From positions 1 to 53,278 of the forward strand of contig JBGPGO010000021.1 of NCBI GenBank assembly GCA_041483895.1: a stretch of DNA of 53,278 nucleotides, read 5' to 3'. The notes below the pieces were generated by a model. That model saw only the letters and a list, made by a program, of their open reading frames with translations, was not told the origin of the DNA and did not search any database. Made by a program: the position numbers and the translations under genes. This document shows positions 32,184 to 49,359 of this stretch, piece after piece. This DNA is from Fimbriimonadia bacterium (GTDB taxonomy: Bacteria > Armatimonadota > Fimbriimonadia > Fimbriimonadales > JABRVX01). Numbering within the stretch: position 1 is the first letter of the stretch; each line of letters opens with the position of its first letter.

Positions 32184-32780
32184 TTATCCCTCAACTGGTC
32201 CTCCTGTTGAGGGGGGTCCGGCAACCACCTCGGATAGCGGGAGAACCTCCCTCGGCATGCAGATCAGCCCGGACTCGGGGTCCCACCGCCCGGCCTCATG
32301 CAGATGGACGCTGGACCATGGGTAGTCCGTCTCCTTCAAACAAAGACCCCGACGAACAGGATTTTCGTGCATGTATTTGATCTTCTGCCAAAATATCTCG
32401 TCGGATTCGATAGGAAAACTGCGGAAGCTGACCTGCCAGAGTGTGCGCTGATTCAGTCCCCGTTGTAGGGCAAACAGCGCGTCGATATCCGGCGGGATCA
32501 GCGGCAACAATTGCTTTGCGGTATACGACTTCAGATTCTTGACGAAGGTTGAAACGTCCTTGTCATCGGGCAGTCTTGTTACGAAGTGTAGATGCTCCGG
32601 CATGACCACATTTCCATGCAAAGCGGCGCCATAGTGTCGGTGCACCTCGAACAGCAGCTCCACCATGCGGTCGGCCAGTTCCTTCGTCCGGAAGATGGGG
32701 ACGAAGTCGAGGACCGTCGTGGTGACGAACACCAACTGACCGGCCTCGGCGACGTTCTTGAAGTGGCGATACCGCTGCAT
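32184..32780 (-). CDS. REP-associated tyrosine transposase (RAYT, IS200/HUH Y1 family)
   Basis: FVTT, HUH motif VVMPEHLH, K..T, LWQ.SF, YMHENPVRRGL and YPWSS; flanked by inverted REPs at 32186-32213 and 32836-32863. Confidence 0.9.
   Translation of the reverse strand: MQRYRHFKNVAEAGQLVFVTTTVLDFVPIFRTKELADRMVELLFEVHRHYGAALHGNVVMPEHLHFVTRLPDDKDVSTFVKNLKSYTAKQLLPLIPPDIDALFALQRGLNQRTLWQVSFRSFPIESDEIFWQKIKYMHENPVRRGLCLKETDYPWSSVHLHEAGRWDPESGLICMPREVLPLSEVVAGPPSTGGPVEG
32186..32213 (+). repeat. REP copy 7 (encodes the RAYT C-terminus)
   Basis: atccctcaactggtcctcctgttgaggg. Confidence 0.8.
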
Positions 32781-32863: not shown

Positions 32864-32953
32864 GCAAAGCCCAAATACCGGGTATACTGAACCCAATCCG
32901 GCGGCCGGTGGTGAACCGGGACGCCGGCTTGCATTAGCGTGGGAGGTCCCTTG

Positions 32954-35230: not shown

Positions 35231-35259
35231 ATATCCATAAACCAGCAATCTTTTCCGCT
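35160..35259 (+). repeat. 100-bp direct repeat, copy A (GT 3' end plus downstream bases)
   Basis: Matches 36327-36426 with 6 mismatches by my manual alignment. Confidence 0.9.
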
Positions 35260-35289
35260 GTCAGATATGCTTTAAGCGATAATAATGTG
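35242..35289 (+). promoter_or_regulatory. 48-bp array leader (candidate promoter), repeated at 38457-38504
   Basis: ccagcaatcttttccgctgtcagatatgctttaagcgataataatgtg; 41/48 identical to the second copy; CTG(T/A)CA...ATAAT boxes. Confidence 0.6.
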
Positions 35290-35334: not shown

Positions 35335-36252
35335 ATGAGGAAACTGTTAGTTAGCGTGCTCACTCTATGTACCGCGGTACTGGCGGTCGCCGAAACGGAC
35401 ACCGGAATCGTCTATGGCTATGACAACGACATTTTCATTTTGCATCAAAATACCGTCCGTGGGATTCTCGACTTGTGGGTCGCTGGATCCCCAACCGGCT
35501 TCATTCTCGGTCACTTCTCCTTTACGGAGGACCCGCTCCTCGGCGGGAAGATCGTTTTTACGGCTACGAAGGGTATCTCCTTTAAGGGATACAAAGATCG
35601 GTTCTTCGGTAATGTAGCCGACATGTGGTTGGAGGGCCTGTTTGACAGCCAGGTCGGTTATGGGCGCCCGATGATCGCAAGGTGTTGCCTTACTGATCCG
35701 TTGAGGGATGCCCAGAATTATTTCGCGATCGAAATTTTTGATCCTCGTGACCTGAGCAAACCGGTCTACACTCGAGTTGGCCTCGCCACCAATACAACAC
35801 ATGTCCTCATCAAGAATGATGCCGGCGGGCTCGCGGACGGGCAGGGTTGGAGCGATGTCGGCCTAGCAACCAGCAAGGGGTTCGACGGTGGCTACTGGGG
35901 GATCGAAAACGTCACGGCATCCTTCAGAGCGTACTCTAACGGCCTGTTTAGTTTCGAGCTGGAAACATCGAGAAAAGTCGGTTTGGTCGGTAAACGATTG
36001 AGGTCCTTCCATTGCACCAACAACACGATCCTCGGGAAAGCTGCGGAATTCTGGTTTGATGCGTGCATCGGATCGAGTGTGAAAACGGCGTACACCCCAG
36101 TGGTCGTACGTGTTATGGTAACACAAGCTAGCCTTACGATAAACCACGACTTCATGTATGTTGCGGTCTACGATCGCACAGACCTGACAAAGCCTATTTT
36201 TGAGCGCCTATACCTCAGCGGATACGGGCGGAACAAGATCCTTTGCAAGTGA
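35335..36252 (+). CDS. Secreted CK-terminal array paralog P1
   Basis: Signal peptide, two-fold internal repeat, ends GRNKILCK. Confidence 0.9.
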   Translation: MRKLLVSVLTLCTAVLAVAETDTGIVYGYDNDIFILHQNTVRGILDLWVAGSPTGFILGHFSFTEDPLLGGKIVFTATKGISFKGYKDRFFGNVADMWLEGLFDSQVGYGRPMIARCCLTDPLRDAQNYFAIEIFDPRDLSKPVYTRVGLATNTTHVLIKNDAGGLADGQGWSDVGLATSKGFDGGYWGIENVTASFRAYSNGLFSFELETSRKVGLVGKRLRSFHCTNNTILGKAAEFWFDACIGSSVKTAYTPVVVRVMVTQASLTINHDFMYVAVYDRTDLTKPIFERLYLSGYGRNKILCK

Positions 36253-36326
36253 CAATGCCGCTAATTTGTAGATTCATTGCCGCAGGAGCAGGGCTGGCTC
36301 TTTCCGTGCCAATTGCTTTCCCGCCG

Positions 36327-36426
36327 GCATGGTGATGCTGGAACTGCTGCCCGAGGAGTCCGAACGGCGCACGGATGAGCCGATAGCGGCCTCGTAAATA
36401 TCCTTAAACCAGCAATCTTTTCCGCT
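36327..36426 (+). repeat. 100-bp direct repeat, copy B (stranded GT 3' end)
   Basis: Encodes MVMLELLPEESERRTDEPIAAS* versus ...PVAAS* in the GT. Confidence 0.9.
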
Positions 36427-36551
36427 CCGAATCTTGCTGTTCGCTGTTATACTGATGACACTATTGACGGGGCCGGCAATCTGCTTGGTCGGCGCCTTCA
36501 TCTTTGGTGTTCGTGCCTTTCGGCGCAATGATAGAAGGGGGACAGTTGACA

Positions 36552-37463
36552 ATGCGTGGACATTTCTTAACGACTCTACTCGCCTTTGCCGGTATATCGG
36601 CAGCACAAGCGGCCAGCAATCTGGGCCTCGCTTACGGCGTGGACGCAAATATGGAGACAAACAAACACGTCACCGCCGGAGTCGATCTTTGGGTGGCCGG
36701 AACTGCATCTGGGATTTTCCTCGATCACTTTGTGTATGGCGAAGTGGGTGGCCAGTATCTTACATTTACCGCTGCACGCGGCATCTCATTCAGCTGCTAT
36801 CAATGGCCGTTCTTTGGCCTGACGGCGGAGATATGGATGGACGGTACGTTTGGTCCAACGACGACCGGAGGTCCGCCGGTGGTTGCGCGATACCGATATT
36901 CCGATCCAGCCGGAAGTTCATTGCAGTTCAGCTACTTTACGATGGACATCTATGATTGGCGCGATTTGACGCATCCAATTTACTCTCGATTTGGGATTGC
37001 CAACGATAAGACTCACATTTTGTGTTCGGGCGATCCGGGACCAATATCCGGTGGAAACGGCGTGAGCTCCATGGGGCTTGCCTACGCGAATCTGTTCGTT
37101 GGCATCAGCAATCGCAATGCAAAAGGATATGCGAACTATCGCGTCTATTCAAACGGCATCATAGATTTCACCTATAGCTCAGAGGCCTTCGTTTTCATGG
37201 CCACACGTCTTCGATCCTTTCAATGCACGAATACGGGTCTTGTCGGCAAGCAGGCAGACTTTTGGATGGACGGCTACAGCGGAGTCGCCGCAGCATGTGC
37301 CCGCACCCCCGCGGTCGCGCACGTAGTTGTTACGCAGTCGTCCGGAGACCCTGGAATCGATCTTGTATTCATAGCGGTCTTTGACCCTCACAATTTGACG
37401 ACACCGGTATACACGCGGCTTCTGTTCGGAAACGGGGGACAGAATCACATTTTGTGCAAGTGA
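36552..37463 (+). CDS. Secreted CK-terminal array paralog P2
   Basis: ATG 36552, signal peptide, ends GQNHILCK; extra Cys pair in repeat 1. Confidence 0.9.
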   Translation: MRGHFLTTLLAFAGISAAQAASNLGLAYGVDANMETNKHVTAGVDLWVAGTASGIFLDHFVYGEVGGQYLTFTAARGISFSCYQWPFFGLTAEIWMDGTFGPTTTGGPPVVARYRYSDPAGSSLQFSYFTMDIYDWRDLTHPIYSRFGIANDKTHILCSGDPGPISGGNGVSSMGLAYANLFVGISNRNAKGYANYRVYSNGIIDFTYSSEAFVFMATRLRSFQCTNTGLVGKQADFWMDGYSGVAAACARTPAVAHVVVTQSSGDPGIDLVFIAVFDPHNLTTPVYTRLLFGNGGQNHILCK

Positions 37464-37499
37464 GTTTGCGATTCGAAATACTTATGAAGAGGAGCGGCC

Positions 37500-38429
37500 A
37501 TGAAAATCCTTAGTCGCAGTTGTTGGACGACATTGTTGTTCATTGCAGCATCACTTAGTTTCGCTGAGACACAATCAGGGATCGTGTTCGGCGGGGAGAA
37601 CGAGGGCGTTACCAATCGAGGAGGCGCGCAATTTCATCTCTGGGTTGCGGGCACCGAATCCGGCCCATTGCTGGGATTTCTCAACTACGTATCATTTCCC
37701 AAACCGGGCGGAGGAGGCAACGTGCTCTATTTCACTGCTTACCGCCTTCGCTCATTCAGGGGCTACGAAAGTATGCTGTTCGGCAAAGTTGCCGACATAT
37801 GGGCCGAGGGTCTCGCTGGTCCGGATCCTGGAATGGGCAAGCCGGCGGTTCTGCACTTTCGAGTGACCGACAGCGCGAAATTTACCGGACGGCTGGCGTA
37901 CTTTACCGCCGACATCTTTGACGCGAACAGCCTCAACAAGCCGACCATCAGCGAAGTCGGGTACGACAACAACCATGTCCGAGTCATCATTGCGGACGGT
38001 ACGGGACCCGAGGCTGGCGGCCAGTTGGGAAGCGACAATGGGCTTGCATATTCGAATACGTTTGGCGGCATCACGAACCGGAAAGAGAAAGTCACCGCTG
38101 AATTTTGGGTAGCGTCCAATGGCGTGATGCGATTCGCTTTGCTCGATCCCCATATCGGACTTGTGGGTACTCGCCTGAAGTCGTTCCATTGCGCGAACAA
38201 TACGTTTCTTGGGAAAGCGGCCGAATTCTGGATGGATGGGTACATGGGACCAAACACGAAAAACGCACACACACCTGTAGTTGCGCAGGTCCTTGTCACC
38301 GACTCGAGTGCAGACTATGGCCTTGAATTCATGCTCTATTCCATCTACGATCCTTCCAATCTGACGACGCCGACGTATCAACGGCTGGTCGTGCGTAACA
38401 ACGGCGACACGAAAATCCTGTGCAAATAG
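37500..38429 (+). CDS. Secreted CK-terminal array paralog P3
   Basis: GAGGAG RBS, signal peptide, ends GDTKILCK. Confidence 0.9.
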   Translation: MKILSRSCWTTLLFIAASLSFAETQSGIVFGGENEGVTNRGGAQFHLWVAGTESGPLLGFLNYVSFPKPGGGGNVLYFTAYRLRSFRGYESMLFGKVADIWAEGLAGPDPGMGKPAVLHFRVTDSAKFTGRLAYFTADIFDANSLNKPTISEVGYDNNHVRVIIADGTGPEAGGQLGSDNGLAYSNTFGGITNRKEKVTAEFWVASNGVMRFALLDPHIGLVGTRLKSFHCANNTFLGKAAEFWMDGYMGPNTKNAHTPVVAQVLVTDSSADYGLEFMLYSIYDPSNLTTPTYQRLVVRNNGDTKILCK

Positions 38430-38431
38430 AT

Positions 38432-38504
38432 TCTGTCAGCCTCGCAATTATGCAATCCGGCATTCTTTGGGGCTGACAGATATGCTTTTAGCGATAATAA
38501 TGTG
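38432..38504 (+). promoter_or_regulatory. Second leader copy (38457-38504) overlapped by a 10-bp inverted repeat
   Basis: tctgtcagcc (38432-38441) / ggctgacaga (38471-38480); leader homologous to 35242-35289. Confidence 0.6.
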
Positions 38505-38538
38505 ATCCCTGATACCAGGGGCGAAAGGGAGGAATCTG

Positions 38539-39444
38539 ATGTTGAAGCAATTGCCGATTTTGGTTGCTTGCTTCGCGTTCGCGCAGATCGCGTGGTCCGA
38601 CACGAATGTAGGACTCGTCTACGGCTCCGACACCTCGATGAGGACGGATCACGGCACTTCGGCTGTCGTTCAGGTATGGATTGCTGGGACGGAAGCAGGA
38701 CCGCTCTTAGACCACTTCCAATATATCGACGACACGACGAAGCAACCGTCATGGCAGTTTGTCGCGTCGCGCGCCAGATCATTCAAAGGATACATCGAGC
38801 CGTTTTTCGGCAAGGTGGCGGACTTTTGGTTGGACGGCCTCCAGGAAAGCTATCCCGGCCAGTCTGGTCGGCCGATGGTCGCCCATGTTGTTATGACGGA
38901 CCCATCCGCGGGCACTGAGCAGCAGATCGGATTCTTTCTCATTGAAATCTTCGATGCAAGAAACTTGAATACTCCCACGGAACGCGTGTTGGCGAACACG
39001 AACGACCGCACTCATGTTCTCATCTCGGACGACGCCGGAGGTATGCTCGGCGCGACTGTTAGCGACACGGGCTTAGCGTACAGCAACGACTTCTTTGGGT
39101 ACACGACTCGGTACGAGATGACCGGCGCCGAATACAATGTTTCATCCAATGGACTTGCAAACTTTGTGTACGAATCAAAGGGGATTGTATTCCGTAGCGC
39201 CCGTCTCAAGTCCTTCCATTGCACGAACACGGGCTTCGTGGGGAAAGAAGCAGACTTCTGGCTGCGAGGTTACTTGGGCGCTAAGAATCTCACACTCGCC
39301 AATGCCCATGTGATCGTGACGCAGAGCAACGCAGGGTTTGAGTTTCTGTATATTGCCCTGTACGATCCGGTGCATCCGGGGGCGCCGACATACGAGCGGC
39401 TGGTAATCCGCTCCACTGGCGGCAATCATATACTTTGCAAGTAG
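38539..39444 (+). CDS. Secreted CK-terminal array paralog P4
   Basis: GGGAGG RBS, signal peptide, ends GGNHILCK. Confidence 0.9.
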   Translation: MLKQLPILVACFAFAQIAWSDTNVGLVYGSDTSMRTDHGTSAVVQVWIAGTEAGPLLDHFQYIDDTTKQPSWQFVASRARSFKGYIEPFFGKVADFWLDGLQESYPGQSGRPMVAHVVMTDPSAGTEQQIGFFLIEIFDARNLNTPTERVLANTNDRTHVLISDDAGGMLGATVSDTGLAYSNDFFGYTTRYEMTGAEYNVSSNGLANFVYESKGIVFRSARLKSFHCTNTGFVGKEADFWLRGYLGAKNLTLANAHVIVTQSNAGFEFLYIALYDPVHPGAPTYERLVIRSTGGNHILCK

Positions 39445-39466
39445 TTATCAAAGAAAGGAATTTCTC

Positions 39467-40399
39467 ATGAAAAGATTTTTTTGGAGCATGTTCGTATTCT
39501 CTGCAGCGCTGGCTGCGTGTTGGTCAGAGACGGATACTGGGATCGCTTATGGCATGGATCCCGGGATTTTCACGACTCAAGCCTCATTCTCCCTGATCGA
39601 TCTATGGGTCGCAGGTTCTCCGGAGGGAGTGTTCTTAGATCATTTCCTTTTTACAGACCGTAAATTCGGCAAAGGCCCTGTGGTGTTTACCGCGACGAGA
39701 GGACTTTCGTTCAAGTGCTATACGGAGCCGTTTTTTGGCACGGTGGCCGACATCTGGCTGGAAGGTCTCTTCGGCAACAGTGTCGGTGGAGGTGGCCGAC
39801 CGGTGATCGCGCACTATCGCATGACCGATCCGGCGGGTCGCTCGAGGCAATATAACTATTACACGATTGATATCTATTTGCCTGATAATCTGACTACTCC
39901 CATTTTCAGTCGAATTGGTGTCGGACGAGACTTAACCAGCGTTCTGTGCCATGATCCAGGAGCGGTTGCCGGTGGTCAAGGCGTGAGCAGCGTCGGTTTG
40001 GCATACAGCCCGAAATATCGCGGTGAAACGCTTTATGAGGTAATGAGTGCTGAGTACAGGGTGTATTCCAACGGAATCCTGAAGTTTCTATTTTCCGCAT
40101 CGAATGGGGGTATAGATGACATTTTGGGTGTAGTAGGAAGCCGATTGCGTTCTTTTGAGTGTACCAACAACGGTTTCTTCGGCAAGCAAGCCGAATTCTG
40201 GATGGACGCATACGTGGGTTCGACACTCAAAACCGCTTATACACCGGTTGTTGCCCGCGTAATCGTTACCGCATCGTTGTTTCCACACGGTGTGGAATTC
40301 ATGTACATTGCGTTGTACGATCGGCGGGATTTAACGAGTCCGATCTACGAGCGATTGTGGATCGGCGGATCTGGTCAGAACCACATCCTATGCAAATGA
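39467..40399 (+). CDS. Secreted CK-terminal array paralog P5
   Basis: Signal peptide, ends GQNHILCK; extra Cys pair in repeat 1. Confidence 0.9.
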   Translation: MKRFFWSMFVFSAALAACWSETDTGIAYGMDPGIFTTQASFSLIDLWVAGSPEGVFLDHFLFTDRKFGKGPVVFTATRGLSFKCYTEPFFGTVADIWLEGLFGNSVGGGGRPVIAHYRMTDPAGRSRQYNYYTIDIYLPDNLTTPIFSRIGVGRDLTSVLCHDPGAVAGGQGVSSVGLAYSPKYRGETLYEVMSAEYRVYSNGILKFLFSASNGGIDDILGVVGSRLRSFECTNNGFFGKQAEFWMDAYVGSTLKTAYTPVVARVIVTASLFPHGVEFMYIALYDRRDLTSPIYERLWIGGSGQNHILCK

Positions 40400-40451
40400 T
40401 TTCGCGAAAAGGGTTTCGGTAAATTGACAAGATGAATGGGAGGAAAAGAAC

Positions 40452-41372
40452 ATGTATCGAACAATGATTAGCTTGCTCGCATTGTGCTTCTTTTGCGGAG
40501 TTGCCAGTGCAGAGACGGACATCGGTGTCGTTTATGGAGAAGACGATAGCATACAGACAGACCATGCCACCGACGCGTTCATTGCTCTTTGGGTTGCGGG
40601 GACGGCTTCTGGACCGATGTTTGGCCACTTCATATATGCGGACGGGACACTGCTCCACGGCTTTTCACAGTTTGTGGGGACCAGAGAGCTTTCGTTCAAG
40701 GGTTACATCGTGCCAATTTTCGGCAAAGTTGCCGATATATGGCTGGAGGGATATTTCGGTCCTCACAAGGCAAACTCCGGTCGACCAACGATTGGCCATT
40801 TCCGAATCAGTCATTCTGAATCGCTTCCGCGCTCGATTGTCACGGTGGATCTCTATGATGCAAACAACCTAGCAGCGCCGTTCCTGACGAGAGTGGCTGT
40901 AGCTAACAACAAAACAGCGGTCCTGATCAGCGACGACGCGGGCGGACCAAAAGGTGCGTCGTCGAGCAACACGGGTCTAGCGTACTGCAAGGAGTTTGAT
41001 GTCACGACAATGCAAGGAGAAGGTGTCTGCTCCAACTACCGCGTCTATTCGAACGGCTTCGTAGATTACCAGTTCTTTGGCTACCCTTTCTATTTCCGAG
41101 GCAGCCGCCTACGGTCCTTCCAATGCTCGAACGACGGGTTCCTCGGCAAGTACGCGGAGTTTTGGGTGGACGGTTACGCTGGCAGCACTGATTTCGCTGG
41201 AAGTAAGGCATATACGCCCGGCGTCGCCCATGTATTGGTCACACAGGCGAGCAGCGGATCGGGCTTTGAATACTTCTATATTGCCGTGTTCGATCCTCAT
41301 GACTTGACGAAACCGGTTTATCAGCGTTTTGGCGTCGGTCGTGCCGGTCAAAACCGCATTCTTTGTAAGTAG
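40452..41372 (+). CDS. Secreted CK-terminal array paralog P6
   Basis: Signal peptide, ends GQNRILCK. Confidence 0.9.
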   Translation: MYRTMISLLALCFFCGVASAETDIGVVYGEDDSIQTDHATDAFIALWVAGTASGPMFGHFIYADGTLLHGFSQFVGTRELSFKGYIVPIFGKVADIWLEGYFGPHKANSGRPTIGHFRISHSESLPRSIVTVDLYDANNLAAPFLTRVAVANNKTAVLISDDAGGPKGASSSNTGLAYCKEFDVTTMQGEGVCSNYRVYSNGFVDYQFFGYPFYFRGSRLRSFQCSNDGFLGKYAEFWVDGYAGSTDFAGSKAYTPGVAHVLVTQASSGSGFEYFYIAVFDPHDLTKPVYQRFGVGRAGQNRILCK

Positions 41373-41415
41373 CTATCGTACGCTACAGTTTGTTCAGAAT
41401 TGAAAGGAGATAGAT

Positions 41416-42336
41416 ATGACGCGATTTCTGATGATCGTTCTATCATCATTCGCGGCGCTTGGCATTTGCACGGCCGAGACAGACACAGGCATTGTCTATG
41501 GCAGCGATGACAACATGCCCACCGAACTGGGCAGAGATGCCGAGATTGCTGTCTGGCTGGCCAATGGACCGTCAGGACCCTTGCTCACGTTATGCAACTA
41601 CTATGATCCCTCGGTCCCTGGCAATCTGGTCTACAACCTGTTTGCCGGGTCGCGGCTTGTTTCATTCAAGGGCTATATCGAACCGTTTTTCGGCAAGGTA
41701 GCGGATTTCTGGGTGGAAGGGTATTTCGGTCCGGAAAAGCAGGGACCCGGCCGGCCGACGCTCGCTCATTTCCGGCTCAATCGATGGGACGGTATTACCC
41801 TGGTCCGAACATTTATGATCGTTGATCTGTACCAACCCGGCAGCGCAACCCCATTCGTTCACCGGCTGGTCGGCTGCCATAACGTCGTTCGGGTTGTCAT
41901 TTCAGACGATGCCGGGCCGAAAGAGGGAAGTTCGGGCGTGAGCAACAATGGCCTCGCCTATTCTCTGGGATTCCAGGGCATGACCAATCGGCAAGAGCCG
42001 GCGCTTTCAGCTTATACCGTCGCCTCGTCGAACTTCACCCGATTCGAGTATGCGGACACAAACATCTCCTATCGCGGATCTCGAATGAGATCGTTCCAAT
42101 GCCAGAATGATACGTTGGTCGGAAAGGCCGCCGATTTTTGGCTCGACGGACACTTTGGGACCGGCAAGAATCCACTTACACCTTGTGTCGCGCACATTAT
42201 CGTAACGGATAAGGCGTCACCCAACGGCTTCCAGTTTCTGTATATCGCTCTCTACGATCCGAGGAACCTATCCAGTCCGTTTTATGAAAGACTGGTCTTA
42301 CGGAACAAGGGAGCGAATCACATCATTTGCAAGTGA
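41416..42336 (+). CDS. Secreted CK-terminal array paralog P7
   Basis: AAGGAG RBS, signal peptide, ends GANHIICK. Confidence 0.9.
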   Translation: MTRFLMIVLSSFAALGICTAETDTGIVYGSDDNMPTELGRDAEIAVWLANGPSGPLLTLCNYYDPSVPGNLVYNLFAGSRLVSFKGYIEPFFGKVADFWVEGYFGPEKQGPGRPTLAHFRLNRWDGITLVRTFMIVDLYQPGSATPFVHRLVGCHNVVRVVISDDAGPKEGSSGVSNNGLAYSLGFQGMTNRQEPALSAYTVASSNFTRFEYADTNISYRGSRMRSFQCQNDTLVGKAADFWLDGHFGTGKNPLTPCVAHIIVTDKASPNGFQFLYIALYDPRNLSSPFYERLVLRNKGANHIICK

Positions 42337-42355
42337 CGGAAGGGTAGGTATTGAA

Positions 42356-43270
42356 ATGAGAAGATTGTGTTTGATGATATTGTTCGCCCTTTCGGCAGGG
42401 TTGGCGTTTGCCGAAACGAACGTCGGCATTGTATATGGCAGTGATGGTGATATTATCTTCACCGATCACCAGACATTGGAAGAACTTGATCTGTTTGTCG
42501 CCGCGACAGAATCGGGTCTGTTCTTCGATCACTTCCGGTTCTACGACCACAACAATTTTGTCAGAACCTACTTTACCGGCTCTCGGTTGATTTCCTTCAA
42601 GGGTTACATACTGCCGTTTTTTGGAAAAGTGGCGGATATTTGGCTAGAGGGCTACTTCGGAAACCAGCCGAATGGGGGACGACCCACGATCGCGCATTTT
42701 CGCATTACCGACCCCGTGGGTTTCGGAGTCCAATACAGTTTCCTGACGATGGATATCTACCTTCCAGGTGATCTAAAGTCGCCGATTTTCAGCCGTGTCG
42801 CCGTTGGATATGACTACACGCATGTGCTGATTGCCGACGATGCGGGACCGCCCGAAACGAGTCCAGGTTTCAGCTCCAACGGCATGGCCTACAGCAAACT
42901 GTATTTGGGAACAACGAATCGGCGAGAGCCCGCCGCCGCGGTATATCGCGTGGCGTCGAACGGACTGATTGATTTCTCTTATGGTGCGCCCAACACAGCC
43001 ATTCAATCTGTGCGATTGCGGTCTTTCAAGTGCACCAACGCGAGCATTGTTGGTAAGGAGGCGGAAATCTGGTTCGATGCGCGATTCGGACCGAACGGCG
43101 ACAACATGTGGACGCCGCGCATCGTCCGGCTGATTGTCACGCAGTCCGCATCATCGACCGGTCTGGAGTTCATGTATATCGAAGTGTACGATCCGGGAAA
43201 TCTGTTGACGCCGGTGTATCAACGTCTGATTTTTGGAAAGTCGGGCCAAAATCATATCTTGTGCAAGTAG
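42356..43270 (+). CDS. Secreted CK-terminal array paralog P8
   Basis: ATG 42356 (MRRLCLMIL), ends GQNHILCK. Confidence 0.9.
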   Translation: MRRLCLMILFALSAGLAFAETNVGIVYGSDGDIIFTDHQTLEELDLFVAATESGLFFDHFRFYDHNNFVRTYFTGSRLISFKGYILPFFGKVADIWLEGYFGNQPNGGRPTIAHFRITDPVGFGVQYSFLTMDIYLPGDLKSPIFSRVAVGYDYTHVLIADDAGPPETSPGFSSNGMAYSKLYLGTTNRREPAAAVYRVASNGLIDFSYGAPNTAIQSVRLRSFKCTNASIVGKEAEIWFDARFGPNGDNMWTPRIVRLIVTQSASSTGLEFMYIEVYDPGNLLTPVYQRLIFGKSGQNHILCK

Positions 43271-43322
43271 CTCGAACCGTGAGAATATTTCTCATTGGAT
43301 AGATAGAAAGGTCACTGTCATA

Positions 43323-44237
43323 ATGAAAAACATCATTGTTATAACAGCCGCCATATTAACCGCGATTTCCTATGCCGAAACGGACCAGGGAGTCGTCTAT
43401 GGCACCGATTACAGCGCTATCATCGGCAAATCGGACATCGTAGGGGTTGATCTTTGGGTCGCCGGCACCGAATCGGGAGTATTGTTCGATCGTTTCAACT
43501 ATGTCGATAAAGGCCCGACGCTCGCCATCGTCGCGACGATTACTGGCACTCGTGGTATCTCGTTCAAAGGCTACGTCGAGCCGTTTTTTGGCAAGGTGGC
43601 GGATATCTGGTTCGAAGGTCTGTTCGGCAACTATCCCGGAACCGGAAAGCCCGCGATCGTGCATTTTCGCACGACGGATCCTCCCGGTTCCAGCATGGTT
43701 AAGTCGTACATGACGATTGACGTTTATCAACCCGGCAACCTCAGCACACCGTACTACAGCCGATTTCTTATCGGAAACAATATCTTGAATGTGCTGATTC
43801 CCATCAATGCCGGGGGTATGGCGGGCGCCGAAATTCCGAGCTCAACCGGATGGGCTTATAGTCTTCCATACAAGGGATATACGAACCGTTACGAGCCTGT
43901 GCAGGCCTATTACAAGGTCTATTCGAACGGAATTCTTGATTTTGAATACTCCTCGTCGGCAATCGGTTTCATGAGTAAGCGGCTGCGGTCGTTCAAGTGT
44001 ACGAATTCGGGCTTCTTTGGAAAGCAGGCGGAGTTCTGGCTGGACGGTTATTCCGGCCCGGCGGCAACCTGCGCGTTCACGCCGCAGGTCGCACGGGTTA
44101 TCGTCACGCAATCTTCCGGGCCGCTGCATTACGACTTTATGTACATCGCGTTCTATGATCCGTACAACCTAACGACACCGGTTTACGAGAGATTTATCAA
44201 CGGCGACGCGGGACAGAACCACATTTTGTGCAAGTAG
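43323..44237 (+). CDS. Secreted CK-terminal array paralog P9
   Basis: ATG 43323 (MKNIIVIT), ends GQNHILCK. Confidence 0.9.
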   Translation: MKNIIVITAAILTAISYAETDQGVVYGTDYSAIIGKSDIVGVDLWVAGTESGVLFDRFNYVDKGPTLAIVATITGTRGISFKGYVEPFFGKVADIWFEGLFGNYPGTGKPAIVHFRTTDPPGSSMVKSYMTIDVYQPGNLSTPYYSRFLIGNNILNVLIPINAGGMAGAEIPSSTGWAYSLPYKGYTNRYEPVQAYYKVYSNGILDFEYSSSAIGFMSKRLRSFKCTNSGFFGKQAEFWLDGYSGPAATCAFTPQVARVIVTQSSGPLHYDFMYIAFYDPYNLTTPVYERFINGDAGQNHILCK

Positions 44238-44265
44238 CCGGCACAATCGGAATTAAGGAGTGATT

Positions 44266-45189
44266 ATGATGAAACTAATTCTATCAGTTTGCGGCCTGCT
44301 CGCCCTGACGATCGCGCAAGCGGAAACGAACGTTGGCATCGTCTACGGTCATGACGGTGACACGACAACGAACCATGGCACGAATACCCTCTACACCATC
44401 TGGGCGGCAGGAACGGAAGCCGGGCCGTTCCTCGGTTACTTCGATTTTGTCGAATTTCCGCTGCCTCCTGGGCTGGCTACCACCCCCACCTTTCATGCGA
44501 CGAGAATTCTCTCATTCACCGGGTATCGAGAGATATTATTCGGGAAAGTGGCCGACATGTGGTTTGAAGGGCTCTTCGACGGAGACTCCCGCGGAGGCAG
44601 CCGCGTTATCGCGCGGTTTCGCCTGACTGATCCGGACTATCCCGTCGAATCTCTCAGCTTATTTACGCTGGACATCTATTCCCCGAATAACATGACGACT
44701 CCGATATACAGTCGGCTCGGAGTGGCCAATGATGGCGTTAGCATCATGATTCGCGATGATGCCGGCTGGCTAAACGGCGGCTCCAATGCAAGCAGCAACG
44801 GGATGGCTTGGTCCACCGGGATAACGATGACCACGAATCGATTCGATACAGCCACGGCTTGCTATCGGGTGACATCGAACGGCATCGTTGACTTCAACTA
44901 CAAGGATCCGCATATCGCGTTTCGGGGCGCTCGCCTGAAGTCCTTCCAGTGCTGCAACAATGGGTTTGCGGGAAAAGAGGCTGACATTTGGCTAACCGGA
45001 TACTCTGGATCATGCCCCTCGGCAACCTATACGCCTCGTGTCGCGCACATCATTATCACGGCCTCAGCGAGCGCCGTGGGATTGGAGTTTATCTATATCG
45101 CCCTCTACGATCCGGTCAACCTTTCGACGCCGGTCTACGAGCGGCTTGGATATCGTCAGGTCGGCGGAAACAATGTTTTGTGCAAGTAG
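44266..45189 (+). CDS. Secreted CK-terminal array paralog P10
   Basis: TAAGGAG RBS, signal peptide, ends GGNNVLCK. Confidence 0.9.
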   Translation: MMKLILSVCGLLALTIAQAETNVGIVYGHDGDTTTNHGTNTLYTIWAAGTEAGPFLGYFDFVEFPLPPGLATTPTFHATRILSFTGYREILFGKVADMWFEGLFDGDSRGGSRVIARFRLTDPDYPVESLSLFTLDIYSPNNMTTPIYSRLGVANDGVSIMIRDDAGWLNGGSNASSNGMAWSTGITMTTNRFDTATACYRVTSNGIVDFNYKDPHIAFRGARLKSFQCCNNGFAGKEADIWLTGYSGSCPSATYTPRVAHIIITASASAVGLEFIYIALYDPVNLSTPVYERLGYRQVGGNNVLCK

Positions 45190-45237
45190 ACGGTTGTTGG
45201 TAGCAAGCCACAGACAAATTGGAAAAGAAGGGACGAC

Positions 45238-46161
45238 GTGAAACGAATAGTTTTATTACTGGTCGCAGCGTGCTGCTCGGCGGCTCACTGCTTCGGCGAA
45301 ACCAAAGTCGGCCTCGCTTATGGGATCGACGATTCGTTGCTGACGGATCATCAAACATTTGCCAATGCCAACTTATGGGTGGCGGGAACAGCCGCCGGTC
45401 CGCTGTTTGGTCACTTTTCCTACACCGACGATACGGGAGGCGCGCCGACCTGGCAATTTATCGCCCAGAGCGCCCGATCGTTCACGGGTTACATCGATCC
45501 GCTGTTCGGAAGAGTGGCGGATGTGTGGTTGGACGGTTTCACGAACAACACCTTCGGAAATCCCTTCGGCAGTCCAACTGTTGCGCACGTCCGTATCTCC
45601 GATCCAAGTTCAGGAATCGGCCAAATGCGTGGATTGTTTCTCATCGAGCTATTTGACCCCCATAACTTAACGGCTCCGTTCAGGACTGTTCTGGCAATCA
45701 CGGAAGACCAGGTAACGATTCTTCTCAAAGATGACGCAGGCGCTCAGACCGGTGCTAAGATCAGTCAGAACGGATTCGCATATAGTACTTATTTTCAAGG
45801 CGGCACCGATCGCGGAGAGAAGTCTATCGGGAACTTCCGTGTGTATTCGAACGGCATTGTCGATTTTCACATCAATGATGGACCTGCCGGATTCCGGGGA
45901 ACGCGCCTCAAGTCATTCAACTGCACGAACACCGCATTTGTCGGAAAGGTCGCGGAGTTTTGGCTGGACGGATATTGCGGTCCGACGGAAGACAATGCTC
46001 ACACGCCGAAGACTGCTCATATTGTCGTCACGGATCCGGGCAACTTCGTCGGTATCAGTTTCGTCTATCTTGCGCTCTATGATCCTGGACATCTTGACCA
46101 CCCGACATTCGAACGTCTGGCATTTGTTCGCGCTGGGTTTATACATGTCATGTGCAAATGA
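45238..46161 (+). CDS. Secreted CK-terminal array paralog P11
   Basis: GTG start, signal peptide, ends GFIHVMCK. Confidence 0.9.
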   Translation: MKRIVLLLVAACCSAAHCFGETKVGLAYGIDDSLLTDHQTFANANLWVAGTAAGPLFGHFSYTDDTGGAPTWQFIAQSARSFTGYIDPLFGRVADVWLDGFTNNTFGNPFGSPTVAHVRISDPSSGIGQMRGLFLIELFDPHNLTAPFRTVLAITEDQVTILLKDDAGAQTGAKISQNGFAYSTYFQGGTDRGEKSIGNFRVYSNGIVDFHINDGPAGFRGTRLKSFNCTNTAFVGKVAEFWLDGYCGPTEDNAHTPKTAHIVVTDPGNFVGISFVYLALYDPGHLDHPTFERLAFVRAGFIHVMCK

Positions 46162-46258
46162 GAGGCCGATTGGCGGGCATTTCGGGCCACCGACTTCGAT
46201 CCGCCGGCCGGAACTGAATTTCGATCGGTCAGGGAAGAACAAAATCTTTTGCAAGTAG
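46162..46258 (+). pseudogene. Relic 3' end of a 14th array paralog
   Basis: The spacer ends with the frame ...DRSGKNKIFCK* (TAG ending at 46258), matching the family C-terminus. Confidence 0.7.
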
Positions 46259-46266
46259 GTGAACAA

Positions 46267-47190
46267 ATGTTACGCAAAATCTTGGCTGTAGTTTGCATCG
46301 CGCTTGCTTCCGTCGTAAGCGCAGAAACTCACGTCGGCATCGCATACCGCCCCGGTAGCGAAGGAGTGCGAACGAACAGAGGGTTTATGCTACTCAGCTT
46401 CTGGGTAGCGGGTACGGACGCGGGTCCGTTGTTGGGCAACTTTTCCTATACGTCCCAACCTGCCGACGATCTGGTCGCAACGACATTATTTGTTGCCACG
46501 CGCATCCGGTCATTCACCGGCTATCACATGCCGATATTCGGCAAAGTCGTGGATATCTGGTTGGAAGGCCTGCACGGAGCATACAACATGCCAGGCAGGC
46601 CCGTGGTTGCGCATTTCCGAATGAGCGATCCAGGCGAGAATTCAGGAGAGTTCGCATTCTTTACGATGGACATCTATTTGCCGGGTGACCTGTCCAAGTC
46701 GGTTCTCAGCGAATACGGCGTCGCATTCCCCAGCACCCGCGTTCTCATTGCGGACGATGCGGGCTTGCAGGCGGGCGGCCAATGGGGCAGCAACACAGGG
46801 CTGGCCTATACAAACGGCACCTACGTCGTTTCCGTGTCTCATTCAGAGATCGCGGCAACGCAATATCGTGTCTTTTCAAACGGCATTTTGGACTTTCTCT
46901 ATGAGGACAAACACATCGGTTTCATCGGCAAGCGGCTCAAGTCATTCCAGTGCGCCAATAAGACCTTCTTCGGCAGGGCGGCGGAGTTTTGGATGGACGG
47001 CTGCATCGGACCAAACACAAAGACAGCCCATACCCCCGTGGTCGCGCGCGTCTTCGTAACCGACTCCTCGGAAGTGCCGGGTCTGGAGTTCCTGCTGATC
47101 AGCATCTTCGACCCGATCGATCTGACGAAGCCGGTATATCAGCAGTTCGGGGTTCGGACGAAGGGGGACAATCGCATTTTGTGCAAATGA
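46267..47190 (+). CDS. Secreted CK-terminal array paralog P12
   Basis: ATG 46267 (MLRKILAVV), ends GDNRILCK. Confidence 0.9.
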   Translation: MLRKILAVVCIALASVVSAETHVGIAYRPGSEGVRTNRGFMLLSFWVAGTDAGPLLGNFSYTSQPADDLVATTLFVATRIRSFTGYHMPIFGKVVDIWLEGLHGAYNMPGRPVVAHFRMSDPGENSGEFAFFTMDIYLPGDLSKSVLSEYGVAFPSTRVLIADDAGLQAGGQWGSNTGLAYTNGTYVVSVSHSEIAATQYRVFSNGILDFLYEDKHIGFIGKRLKSFQCANKTFFGRAAEFWMDGCIGPNTKTAHTPVVARVFVTDSSEVPGLEFLLISIFDPIDLTKPVYQQFGVRTKGDNRILCK

Positions 47191-47250
47191 GCCCGTCCCT
47201 GAATCAGATATGATTAGATAATTGTTGGAACTTGAAAGGAGTTGTCAACT

Positions 47251-48177
47251 ATGTGGAAGACGATACTTGTCGCGTTATTTGCTGTGGCCCTCTTCGGTTC
47301 TCGCGCGCCAGCAGAATCCACCCAAGGCGTTGCGTATGGCAGTGACGCCAATATGGTCTCCGATCATCAGCAGATCGCGGGAGTGGAGCTATGGGTGGCT
47401 GGTACCCCCAGCGGTGTTTTCTTCGAAAACTTCCAATACATCGAGGGCTCGAACAGTTCTGGGTATGTGAATTTCACGGGTTACAGGGGCATTTCTTTTC
47501 GCTGCTACCGTGAACCGATTCTCGGCAAAGTCGCCGATTCTTGGTTGGAAGGTCTGTTCGGGACCCAAATCACGACGGGCGGCCGCCCGGCAATCGCGCA
47601 TTTTCGTATGACGGACCCTGTGGGTGCCGGTAGCAAAATTACGTTTTGCTCGATTGAAATCTATCTTCCGGGGGATCTGACTACGCCAATCTTTTCCCGC
47701 CTTTGCAGTGCGAGTAATTTCTTGCATGTGCTTTGTGACGGTGATCCAGGGCCTATGACTGGCGGATCGGGTTGGAGTTCGAATGGCCTTGCGTATTCCA
47801 ACAACTTTTCCGGTAGAACCACTCGGGACGAACCTGCGGATGCCGTTTACCGCGTCTATTCGAATGGGATCATAAGCTTTGCGTATGGCTGCAAAGGGAT
47901 TGGGTTCGTAGCCAGTAGACTGCGGAGTTTCATGTGCACAAAGACAGGATTCCTTGGCAGAGAGGCGGAGTTTTGGATGGATGGGTATACGGGACCCACT
48001 CCGAAGGTCGCTAGGACGCCGGCTGTGGCTCATGTTTTGGTAAACGCTAACTTCTCTGATCTCATTGGATTCGACTTCATGTTCATCGAGTTCTATGAAC
48101 CGCGGAACCTAATGAAACCGATCTATCAGAGATTGATTATCGCGCCGCCGGCTTCCAATCACATCATGTGCAAGTAG
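47251..48177 (+). CDS. Secreted CK-terminal array paralog P13
   Basis: AAGGAG RBS, ATG 47251, ends ASNHIMCK; extra Cys pair in repeat 1. Confidence 0.9.
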   Translation: MWKTILVALFAVALFGSRAPAESTQGVAYGSDANMVSDHQQIAGVELWVAGTPSGVFFENFQYIEGSNSSGYVNFTGYRGISFRCYREPILGKVADSWLEGLFGTQITTGGRPAIAHFRMTDPVGAGSKITFCSIEIYLPGDLTTPIFSRLCSASNFLHVLCDGDPGPMTGGSGWSSNGLAYSNNFSGRTTRDEPADAVYRVYSNGIISFAYGCKGIGFVASRLRSFMCTKTGFLGREAEFWMDGYTGPTPKVARTPAVAHVLVNANFSDLIGFDFMFIEFYEPRNLMKPIYQRLIIAPPASNHIMCK

Positions 48178-48255
48178 CAACGGAATTAGTACTCTGAACG
48201 AGCAACCCGATGGATCCGCTTTCCATTGCGTCTCCTCATCGGGTTCAATTGCTGC

Positions 48256-49359
48256 GTGGACTACACGATTGACCATGTGCGCGCGTTTCGGTTCCAACGC
48301 CACCATTTGACTCAGCCGGCCAACGGTATCTCAATTGCCGAACTGGTTCATAGCATCTGCGGCTGCCAGGCGCAGGTGTTGAGCGCGGCGGAGCTGCAGA
48401 TCCGGGCCCGGATGCCGCAGGTGACGCGGGAGCGGATTCGTACGGCGCTGGCTGTGGACCGATCCATTGTGAAGACCTGGTGCATGCGGGGGACTGTTCA
48501 TCTCTTGCCAGCTAAACAGTTGGGCATCTATCTCGCCGGACGCCGCGAGGCGGGTCTGCAGCGTAATGCCGGATGGCTGAAGAAGATGGGCTATGAAAAG
48601 ACGTGGTTCGATGATGTGGTGGCGCAGATCCGCTCTGCATTGGCAAATGGTCCGATGACGCGGCGGGAGATTGCCGGGCTCGTTTCGCCGAATCTGCGCG
48701 ATCTGATCGTCCATTCGTGGGGCGCAGGCATTCAGTTGGCGACGGCGGCAGGCGCGGTGGTCTTTGCCCCAGGGGAGACGAAAGATGTGCGTTTTGTTCG
48801 CATGGACCATTGGCTGCCAGGCTACTCCGATCCGCCCGAAGAGGAGGCGCAAAACGAACTGTTGCGTGGCTATTTGCAAACGTACGGTCCCGCGTCGCTC
48901 GGTGATTTCGCGATTTGGCTTGGCGGGACGGTCGGTCTCGGCCGAAAGATGCTGAATCGGATCGCTGACGAAGTGATCGAGATAGAGGTCGGCTCGCAGC
49001 GCCTGCTGCTGTTGAAAAAGGATTTGAAAACGCTCGTGACAGTGGCTCCGCCGACCGGCGTGAAACTGCTGCCCAACTTCGATCCGGTCCTGTTGGGGCA
49101 CAAGGATCGTTCTCATTTGGTGCCAAGAAAACATCATGCGCAGGTGTTTCGCGTGGCCGGCTGGATATCACCCACGATTCTTCTCGATGGCCGGGTTATC
49201 GGGACGTGGGGTTGGAAGAAGAAAGGGAAGGGGATCGAGATCGGACTCGAACCGTTCGGTCGGCTGCCAAGAGAGGCGAAAGTTGGCATTGAAAAGGAGG
49301 TTGCCGACATTGGGCGGTTTTTCGACCAGCCCGCAATCAAGCGAGATCGCACTCGCTAG
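48256..49359 (+). CDS. AlkZ-like (HTH_42) winged-helix DNA glycosylase
   Basis: QAQ catalytic motif, W.MRGT.H, YL..YGPAS..DF..W.G, LLP.FDP.LLG.KDR and G.V.G.W. GTG start inferred. Confidence 0.85.
   Translation: MDYTIDHVRAFRFQRHHLTQPANGISIAELVHSICGCQAQVLSAAELQIRARMPQVTRERIRTALAVDRSIVKTWCMRGTVHLLPAKQLGIYLAGRREAGLQRNAGWLKKMGYEKTWFDDVVAQIRSALANGPMTRREIAGLVSPNLRDLIVHSWGAGIQLATAAGAVVFAPGETKDVRFVRMDHWLPGYSDPPEEEAQNELLRGYLQTYGPASLGDFAIWLGGTVGLGRKMLNRIADEVIEIEVGSQRLLLLKKDLKTLVTVAPPTGVKLLPNFDPVLLGHKDRSHLVPRKHHAQVFRVAGWISPTILLDGRVIGTWGWKKKGKGIEIGLEPFGRLPREAKVGIEKEVADIGRFFDQPAIKRDRTR

What the first reader, a model, noticed from the sequence alone, without database searches (positions are those of the whole stretch)
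35335..48177. Tandem array of 13 divergent, intact secreted paralogs with a two-fold internal repeat and an invariant Cys-Lys C-terminus
Seen: 13 co-oriented ORFs of ~300-310 aa, mostly with short spacers, each with a Sec-type signal peptide (mature start usually ET[DN].G[IL][VA]YG). Each mature protein is two homologous beta-rich halves: GIVYG/GLAYS, R..SF.GY/RL.SF.C, FGKVADIWLEG/GK.AEFW.DG, AHFR.TD/AHV.VT, Y.P.NL..P.F.R/YDP.NL..P.Y.R and VLI/ILCK. The scaffold is conserved while the loops differ widely, none of the 13 is broken, and the DNA looks more AT-rich than the core genes. I recognise no family. Inference: a diversified repertoire of exported binding proteins (adhesin/lectin-like, receptor decoy, poly-immunity, or subunits of a hetero-oligomeric surface structure), possibly linked to the upstream GT4 fusion gene.
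Basis: partly seen in the sequence, partly recalled or inferred. Interest (0 to 1): 0.92.

Follow-up and report, generated by a model that had tools for sequence, protein, structure and literature searches.

The report
Library of 13 secreted double-barrel proteins
A sediment bacterium carries 13 intact, side-by-side genes for exported proteins that share one barrel-shaped scaffold but differ on one surface, and DNA scars suggest new versions get added at the front, like a growing kit of binding proteins whose targets are unknown.

Summary
Confirmed: 13 intact, co-oriented genes (301-310 aa, 33-50% identical) encode Sec-exported proteins of two homologous 8-stranded beta-barrels; the terminal Cys most likely closes a disulfide. 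Four sequencing runs support the assembly. The host is a Fimbriimonadales (Armatimonadota). No copy matches Pfam, NCBIfam, PADLOC or PDB sequences. Stepping-stone profiles, independent bridge proteins and matching fold hits make the barrel a remote derivative of NCBIfam's functionally unknown post-COAP-1 domain; the direct comparison is not significant. The genome holds three more double-barrel genes and at least nine single-barrel kin; strong matches occur in 3 of 228 class genomes, all one family. New here: the end of the upstream GT4 gene plus leader recurs after copy 1 (90%) and copy 3 (81%), although the enclosed genes are anciently diverged, and one relic gene end survives. This suggests copies were gained at the leader end and sometimes lost. 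One barrel face is hypervariable (0.14 pair identity against 0.58). Best reading: a library of exported binders, most likely defensive (0.4). No ligand, toxin or expression is shown. GT4 looks like a landing site, not a partner. The scan's earlier notes did not hold this family.

The parts
32939..35230 (+). GT4 glycosyltransferase fused to a glycoside-hydrolase-like C-terminal part; conserved neighbour of rpoC; its 3' end is the anchor of the array, not shown to be a functional partner
   Evidence: Pfam PF00534, PF13439, PF07470; orthologues in G001 and G002 without an array behind them
35147..35259 (+). Repeat copy R0: last 28 codons of GT4 plus first 29 bases of the leader
   Evidence: 90% identical over 113 bp to 36314-36426, E 3e-38
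35258..35289 (+). Promoter-like element in front of copy 1 (sigma-70-like match 35258-35286)
   Evidence: found at only two places in the genome at up to 7 mismatches (here and 38473); consensus match only, the scan as a whole found no more sites than shuffles
35335..36252 (+). Copy 1 (305 aa), flanked by repeats R0 and R1; candidate most recent addition
36314..36426 (+). Repeat copy R1: orphan GT4 gene end plus leader start, in the spacer between copies 1 and 2
   Evidence: 0 of 1000 shuffles reach the score
36552..37463 (+). Copy 2 (303 aa; Cys pair in both barrels)
37500..38429 (+). Copy 3 (309 aa; sister of copy 12)
38437..38504 (+). Repeat copy R2: older, decayed GT4 end plus well-kept promoter-like element (30 of 32 bases) in front of copy 4
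   Evidence: 81% over 70 bp, E 1e-11; score 88 against shuffle maximum 30
38539..39444 (+). Copy 4 (301 aa; sister of copy 11)
39467..40399 (+). Copy 5 (310 aa; the modelled copy, two 8-stranded barrels, Cys pair in both)
40452..41372 (+). Copy 6 (306 aa)
41416..42336 (+). Copy 7 (306 aa)
42356..43270 (+). Copy 8 (304 aa)
43323..44237 (+). Copy 9 (304 aa)
44266..45189 (+). Copy 10 (307 aa)
45238..46161 (+). Copy 11 (307 aa, GTG start)
46229..46258 (+). Relic 3' end of a lost 14th copy (ends in the family's Cys-Lys-stop)
   Evidence: scores 26.6 bits on a matrix of the 13 gene ends; best other genome sites 18.9 (a single-barrel member) and 17.3, among 7.9 million positions
46267..47190 (+). Copy 12 (307 aa)
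47251..48177 (+). Copy 13 (308 aa; Cys pair in both barrels)
48226..49359 (+). AlkZ-like DNA glycosylase, downstream boundary
   Evidence: PF06224 E 7e-58; not found with this query in G001 or G002

Best explanation
The array is a library of exported binding proteins that most likely defends the cell envelope. Each protein is exported by Sec (inferred from signal peptides), folds into two 8-stranded beta-barrels derived from a freed post-COAP-1-type module (predicted), and is locked by a disulfide to the terminal Cys (inferred from covariation). Conserved outward-facing aromatic patches pack the barrels on each other or on a common partner, while the upper outer face of strands 1-4 and its loops differ in every copy and give each a different target (inferred from sequence register, not from coordinates). 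The likeliest targets are foreign proteins reaching the periplasm or surface, such as rival enzymes and toxins or phage receptor-binding proteins, which the binders neutralise or mask (inferred by analogy). The library changes by recombination at the GT4 gene end: incoming segments carrying a GT4 end, leader and a different paralogue are added at the promoter-proximal side, older copies stay intact and some are deleted (scars shown; direction and donor inferred).
For: Purifying selection on all 13 (pS 0.73 saturated, pN 0.40). Face contrast 0.14 against 0.58 mean pair identity for 20 and 24 positions, same pattern in both barrels. Cys covariation in the N-barrel 8/0/3/17 among 28 homologues, Fisher p 5e-5 with kin not independent; C-barrel pair 28 of 28. 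GT4-end repeats at 90% and 81%, decaying with distance from GT4, around genes only 38% identical to their neighbours, longest exact DNA shared by any two copies 19 bp, so not a plain in-place duplication. Relic gene end. The 13 form one side of a branch, 100/99, against 15 other double-barrel proteins. Low GC3. Family mates have single-barrel arrays of 2 and 4 genes, each headed by a decayed copy. Fold neighbours include a T6SS immunity protein (9jdd_B, Z 7.3, rmsd 3.0, 90 aligned) and a Brucella PhiA (7dpy_A, Z 6.0). Strings of non-identical paralogues shaped by recombination are the known form of esaG, tsaI and tipC immunity loci (PMC9484751, abstract and passages). The genome holds 9 Rhs cores, so polymorphic-toxin conflict exists in this lineage.
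Against: No toxin gene lies next to either array or the relatives' arrays; the upstream gene is a conserved glycosyltransferase. No T6SS TssC match in the genome (95% complete). No PADLOC match for 28 of 28. The fold matches are middling (best Z 8.5) and cover adhesins, avidins, hemophores and OMPs as well, so they show no function. Canonical post-COAP-1 domains are tails of secreted multidomain proteins, which fits anchoring or glycan binding as well. No recombinase in the array; only two repeats support the polarity; a third candidate (spacer 12-13, p 0.014 in 13 tests) and the leader match in the second array (score 38, shuffle maximum 41) were not significant. The repeats could also have been kept alike by later gene conversion. 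Positive selection could not be measured. The inner/outer assignment was made by hand from the alignment register after the conservation values had been seen, so its p-value (9e-8) overstates.
Confidence: 0.4

Rival explanations
1. Adhesin or lectin-like repertoire: the proteins are secreted to the surface and each binds a different glycan, mineral-associated polymer or partner cell, for attachment or feeding in sediment.
For: Best fold match for both this model and a canonical post-COAP-1 model is Tp0751 (5jk2_A, Z 8.5), described as an 8-stranded barrel without a pocket that binds matrix proteins (PMC5040251, passages; its surface role is disputed in PMC7521688, search listing only). Structural look-alikes of a single-barrel member are domains in Big_1, VWA and S8-peptidase proteins (TM 0.71-0.74). 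Aromatic content 12-16%. The genome has 3 secretins and BamA.
Against: No anchor (no lipobox, no dockerin tail, no transmembrane helix); no carbohydrate-uptake genes beside either array; frequent gain and loss suits an arms race better than a stable diet.
Confidence: 0.27
2. Structural envelope subunits: the copies co-assemble through their conserved outer patches into an S-layer-like or hetero-oligomeric coat whose exposed face varies, for example to escape phages or predators.
For: Conserved outward-facing aromatic positions on strands 5-7 and at the base of strands 1, 2 and 9 (0.54-0.74 pair identity); one operon-like run with an RBS before each gene; the double barrel looks like a fused dimer of the single-barrel kin.
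Against: The conserved patches can be explained by the barrel-barrel interface inside one chain; copy number varies freely (2, 4, 3, 13) and many kin are scattered singletons, which does not suit a fixed assembly; GC3 is low for a highly expressed coat.
Confidence: 0.15
3. Small-molecule carriers of the calycin type: each barrel holds a different hydrophobic ligand, toxin or antibiotic in its interior.
For: Avidins, nitrophorin, YceI/Bcn proteins and hemophore barrels are among the fold matches at Z 5.3-6.4.
Against: The inferred inner positions are hydrophobic and conserved (0.50 and 0.64 pair identity) and the variation lies outside; the lipocalin G-x-W motif on strand 1 is absent.
Confidence: 0.08
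4. Outer-membrane 8-stranded barrels of the OmpA/OmpW/NspA type.
For: OmpA, TtoA, NspA, OprF and PagL barrels score Z 6.8-7.5.
Against: In register with the soluble post-COAP-1 domain the outward faces carry conserved Asp, Glu, His and Arg (hydrophobic fraction 0.32-0.58 on four of six outer sets); GRAVY about zero; the C-terminus is Cys-Lys, not an aromatic BAM signal (recalled feature).
Confidence: 0.03

Closest known systems
post-COAP-1 domain (NCBIfam NF041523)
   Same: Same predicted 8-stranded barrel and strand register; linked by profiles through single-barrel kin (array halves to family singles P 99.3; those to two further singles sets P 97.5; those to 16 over-cut-off post-COAP-1 domains P 96, E 4e-9; family singles directly to post-COAP-1 P 43, E 2.5e-4). 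Double-barrel secreted proteins from two other Armatimonadota families match both my model and the canonical model although neither was built from them; one also hits NF041523 at E 1.3e-5. Both models have the same best PDB match.
   Different: No array copy scores against NF041523 (0 of 13 at E up to 10) and the direct profile comparison is not significant (P 2, E 0.022; 1 of 20 shuffles did better). Here the domain stands alone behind a signal peptide, is doubled, carries a disulfide, has lost the GEPG and GGNIxIH motifs, and is amplified into arrays. The domain's function is not described in the libraries or papers searched.
Tandem immunity paralogue strings (esaG, tsaI, tipC of T7SS loci) and the S. 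aureus lpl cluster
   Same: Many intact, non-identical paralogues in one orientation, gain and loss by homologous recombination, partial copy of the upstream gene inside the string (tspA fragment) (PMC9484751 passages; PMC2568036 abstract).
   Different: No cognate toxin upstream, no sequence or fold kinship shown, and no homology blocks inside the genes (longest shared exact DNA 19 bp); the scar lies in the neighbouring housekeeping gene end.
rAID-1 acquired interbacterial defence clusters of Bacteroidales
   Same: Co-oriented low-GC gene run with repeated intergenic sequence, suggestive of active acquisition (10.1101/471110 passages).
   Different: No tyrosine recombinase at the head, one protein family rather than mixed immunity families, and only 2 of 12 spacers carry the repeat.
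Tp0751 and other pocket-less 8-stranded calycin-like barrels (also BtaiB, PliC, avidins)
   Same: Fold: 5jk2_A Z 8.5, rmsd 3.2, 102 aligned, 8% identity.
   Different: Middling Z, no sequence match in the PDB, no lipocalin motif; analogy only.

Membership tests
post-COAP-1 domain (NF041523) | Score at or above the curated cut-off of 40 bits | tested here: not met
   0 of 13 copies listed at E up to 10; genome's best matches are other proteins at 24-28 bits
post-COAP-1 domain (NF041523) | Homology to the domain by profile comparison | tested here: inconclusive
   Met through stepping stones and bridge proteins, not met directly (P 2)
post-COAP-1 domain (NF041523) | 8-stranded antiparallel barrel of about 115-140 residues | tested here: met
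   Models at pLDDT 88 and 92 share best match 5jk2_A, Z 8.5, and most top rows; the two models could not be superposed directly
post-COAP-1 domain (NF041523) | C-terminal tail on a larger secreted protein | tested here: not met
   Stand-alone double barrel; search of 269-2000 aa proteins found only 2, both from this genome (weak evidence of absence)
Polymorphic-toxin immunity string (esaG/tsaI/tipC type) | Tandem intact non-identical paralogues with gain and loss | tested here: met
Polymorphic-toxin immunity string (esaG/tsaI/tipC type) | Cognate toxin gene directly upstream of the first copy | tested here: not met
   Upstream gene is GT4; second array lies between an amidase region and pyrG; nearest Rhs core is 4 kb away on the other strand with its own downstream gene
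Polymorphic-toxin immunity string (esaG/tsaI/tipC type) | Neutralises a toxin | not testable with these tools
   needs bench assay
rAID-1 / integron-like cassette array | Tyrosine recombinase at the head of the array | tested here: not met
   No such Pfam family among the window proteins scanned; only an IS200-like transposase at 32184-32780
rAID-1 / integron-like cassette array | Repeated motif in most intergenic spacers | tested here: not met
   2 of 12 spacers match the leader significantly; no other spacer pair matches
Lipocalin / calycin | G-x-W motif on strand 1 (SCR1) (motif recalled; SCRs named in PMC5040251) | tested here: not met
   Strand 1 reads G-[IL]-[VA]-Y-G
Lipocalin / calycin | Ligand pocket in the barrel | not testable with these tools
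Known anti-phage defence systems (PADLOC 2.0) | Match to a system protein model | tested here: not met
   28 scanned, one chance-level hit at E 0.065

The most novel reading that the evidence does not exclude
A recombinase-free, gene-level acquired-defence library: a natural antibody-like scaffold (a freed, doubled post-COAP-1 barrel with one hypervariable face) whose variants are swapped between relatives and stacked in time order at the end of a housekeeping gene, each neutralising a different envelope attacker such as a phage or toxin.
Probability: 0.2. Interest if true: 0.85.

Novelty: new variant of a known kind. Interest (0 to 1): 0.57.

Why it matters
It is an undescribed, lineage-restricted protein family with an unusually clean natural diversity series: 13 intact variants of one disulfide-locked scaffold, with scars that record how the set grew. 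It offers the first handle on what the widespread but uncharacterised post-COAP-1 barrel does, because here it works alone. If the variable face binds foreign proteins, it is a new small binder scaffold and a new kind of envelope defence in a phylum with almost no molecular biology. Its limits: the form (tandem paralogue strings) is known, the target is unknown, and the host is uncultured.

Tried and rejected
Family libraries: Pfam 0 of 13, NCBIfam one chance hit, PHROGs only single weak hits among 24, PADLOC, PDB sequences, Rfam none in 28000-53278. Foldseek against PDB and viral structures: nothing at E 0.001 or better. ESM Atlas by features: unnamed clusters only, 0.79 for copy 5 and 0.91 for a single-barrel kin. 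Loci of the other double-barrel proteins could not be read: metagenome and genome scans with the 8-sequence alignment found none, nor did a motif for the GT4 end, viral scans or plasmids; so the arrays of other organisms are inferred only from shared contig lengths, and no second strain with a different first gene was seen. No RNA holder listed; expression is open. dN/dS for positive selection rejected: 61 of 78 pairs have pS of 0.7 or more. Trees of the N- and C-halves were too weakly resolved to show or exclude domain shuffling. No joint deleting copy 1 between its repeats was listed; one weak joint 41662-43681 (side 20 letters, one run) was set aside as a likely repeat effect. Promoter and terminator counts did not exceed shuffles. 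A shared 16-base leader in the second array was not significant. P0022 was dropped as a repetitive chance match, and P0020 and P0024 as near-copies of copies 7 and 10. The idea that the single-barrel gene on contig C17 is a prophage moron was weakened: the surrounding portal has matches in 145 of 228 class genomes. Papers: 'post-COAP-1' 0 hits; NF041523, post-COAP and choice-of-anchor P gave 12 unrelated medical papers; listings for 'choice-of-anchor', Fimbriimonadales with paralog or tandem and Armatimonadota with secreted, barrel or tandem array showed no title on this family; subscription papers and bioRxiv supplements were not searched and may bear on novelty.


Full report
Observation. 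The window holds 13 open, co-oriented ORFs from 35335 to 48177. With starts chosen by RBS and signal peptide they are 301-310 aa and 33-50% identical. Every one has a Sec-type leader of 18-22 residues. The mature chain is two homologous halves (hhalign P 99.7, E 2.2e-26). GC and GC3 are below those of seven core genes. Contigs of four public sediment runs lie on the region with flat depth; of the 32 pieces listed (616 in all), zero-difference pieces bridge 10 of 12 inter-copy junctions and both flanks, junction 1-2 is tiled through unique sequence and junction 6-7 is not among those listed. The array is real.

Host and range. A family mate's record is titled Fimbriimonadales bacterium (L059), so the host is an Armatimonadota of that order; the runs that hold the DNA are sediment metagenomes. 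The same genome has a second run of three double-barrel genes on contig C8 (about 30% identical) and single-barrel kin: six found by iterating a half-domain HMM, three more through the post-COAP-1 model and its neighbour, and one weak candidate. Among 1.84 billion representatives only 25 proteins match the array profile: 9 are from this genome, 2 are near-copies of array genes, 1 is a chance match, 13 come from other, unnamed organisms. A single-barrel model matches 3 of 228 genomes of the class, all of the host's family, and 5 more of 400 across the phylum weakly. The two family mates carry tandem single-barrel genes, 2 and 4 copies, each run headed by a decayed copy. Shared contig lengths suggest tandem double-barrel genes in other organisms too, but I could not read those contigs.

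Structure. AlphaFold2 on the 13-row alignment gives an all-beta model, mean pLDDT 88, pTM 0.68. Each half aligns to 8-stranded antiparallel barrels, best Tp0751 (5jk2_A, Z 8.5, rmsd 3.2, 102 aligned), then designed barrels, OmpA, the T6SS immunity protein BtaiB (Z 7.3) and avidins (Z 5.7-5.8); these are middling scores and carry no function. The invariant terminal Cys pairs by inference with the Cys of the SF-x-C motif: both are present in 28 of 28 C-barrels, and in N-barrels the first Cys occurs 8 times, always with the second (8/0/3/17; kin are not independent).

Family. No curated family matches. The motif order recalled the post-COAP-1 domain, so I built an independent profile from 16 over-cut-off NF041523 matches of other Armatimonadota (three further over-cut-off rows were left out: one partial with a split, one with a stop, one partial, and one had no locus). 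Profile links run array halves to family singles (P 99.3), to the C5/C26 singles (P 97.5), to canonical domains (P 96, E 4e-9); family singles reach the canonical set directly at P 43, E 2.5e-4, whereas the array halves do not (P 2; one of 20 column shuffles scored higher). Secreted double-barrel proteins of two other families, found by my model, also match the canonical model (E 1e-16 to 4e-12 in a small database), and one hits NF041523 itself (E 1.3e-5). A model of a canonical domain has the same best PDB match and many of the same top rows, and the Atlas places a single-barrel member at TM 0.71-0.74 with domains of Big_1, VWA and S8-peptidase proteins. I put the homology at about 0.85; membership by cut-off fails. 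I found no paper on the domain.

Selection and surfaces. Synonymous sites are saturated (mean pS 0.73) while pN is 0.40, lower in strands (0.37) than loops (0.48); the longest exact DNA match between two copies is 19 bp. All copies are old and kept intact. Using the register with the soluble canonical domain to call faces, inner positions are hydrophobic and conserved, outer positions of strands 5-8 and of the barrel base are conserved (0.54-0.74), and the upper outer face of strands 1-4 is hypervariable (0.14 and 0.13 in the two barrels). The face call was manual and made after seeing the data. Conserved outer charges argue against a membrane barrel.

How the array grew. The 13 copies form one side of a branch (100/99) against the C8 trio and 12 outside proteins, with sister pairs 3/12 and 4/11 out of positional order. 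The spacer after copy 1 contains a 113-bp copy of the GT4 gene end and leader start, 90% identical (E 3e-38); the spacer after copy 3 has an older copy (81% over 70 bp) in which the promoter-like 32-mer is kept at 30 of 32 bases and occurs nowhere else in the genome. In the last 23 codons of the younger repeat the four changed codons are three synonymous and one Val to Ile, a mild hint that both ends once served in working GT4 genes. Because copy 1 is only 38% identical to copy 2, a plain tandem duplication cannot explain a 90% repeat around it; the simplest reading is that a segment from a relative's locus recombined in at the GT4 end, twice at least. Later gene conversion between old repeats is the alternative. 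A relic gene end between copies 11 and 12 shows loss. No recombinase was found in the array, and only 2 of 12 spacers carry the repeat. In both family mates GT4 follows rpoC with no barrel gene behind it, so GT4 is a landing site rather than a partner.

Function. Shown: export signals, fold (predicted), maintenance, one variable face, turnover. Inferred: binding, and its target. The cell is diderm (BamA, three secretins), so unanchored Sec proteins sit in the periplasm or are secreted on. Strings of non-identical intact paralogues remodelled by recombination are the known form of T7SS immunity loci (PMC9484751, passages), the lpl lipoprotein cluster (PMC2568036, abstract) and, with a recombinase, rAID-1 (10.1101/471110, passages). 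Against immunity in the strict sense: no adjacent toxin, no TssC match, although nine Rhs cores exist elsewhere. I rate a defensive binder library at 0.40, adhesin or lectin repertoire 0.27, structural coat 0.15, small-molecule carriers 0.08, membrane barrels 0.03, other 0.07; polarised acquisition at the GT4 end about 0.6.

Verdict. A real, undescribed and lineage-restricted family; a new variant (freed, doubled, disulfide-locked, arrayed) of an uncharacterised known domain, arranged like known paralogue repertoires but with its own growth scars. Interest 0.57. Tallies over class genomes include one genome marked unpublished (G036); no claim depends on it alone.

Noticed in passing
L053:1789-8146 (G000:C17 about 53500-69600): A compact phage-like head and tail module (terminase phrog_38, portal phrog_113, protease phrog_976, major head phrog_371) whose portal has a match in 145 of 228 Fimbriimonadia genomes, mostly one per genome (tally includes unpublished G036). 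It looks like a domesticated, gene-transfer-agent-like element; a paper search for gene transfer agent with Armatimonad listed no title on it.
   Followed up: partly
L053:4783-5265 (-): A single-barrel member of this family is inserted antisense between the portal and protease genes of that module; no match in the 1.5 kb behind the portal in G002.
   Followed up: partly
L001:8985-12047 (-) (G000:C8:162984-166046): Second array of three double-barrel paralogues, between an amidase region and pyrG, forming its own branch (100/100).
   Followed up: yes
window:29985-31149 (-): Short orphan Rhs-core gene (TIGR03696, E 7e-14) with a small C-terminal extension, followed by a 191-aa unannotated gene, probably a toxin tip and immunity pair; one of nine Rhs cores in the genome.
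   Followed up: no
window:21812-32938: About 11 kb lie between rpoC and GT4 (PQQ-type propeller, two unannotated large genes, Lgt-like gene, WD40-like gene, Rhs pair, IS200-like transposase), whereas rpoC and GT4 are adjacent in G001 and G002: a second variable region beside the array.
   Followed up: partly
L091, L092, L093, L095: Secreted proteins of two tandem post-COAP-1-like barrels without the disulfide in two other Armatimonadota families: an apparently separate doubling of the same domain.
   Followed up: partly
L023 (G000:C1:298879-300579, -): A secreted protein resembling vanadium haloperoxidase/PAP2 enzymes (resemblance recalled, not scanned) ends in a near-canonical post-COAP-1 domain.
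   Followed up: no
G000:C11:154753-155343 and G000:C17:77470-77807: Two near-identical starts of a further, weakly matching single-barrel gene, both at contig ends; possibly a collapsed repeat or another small array.
   Followed up: no
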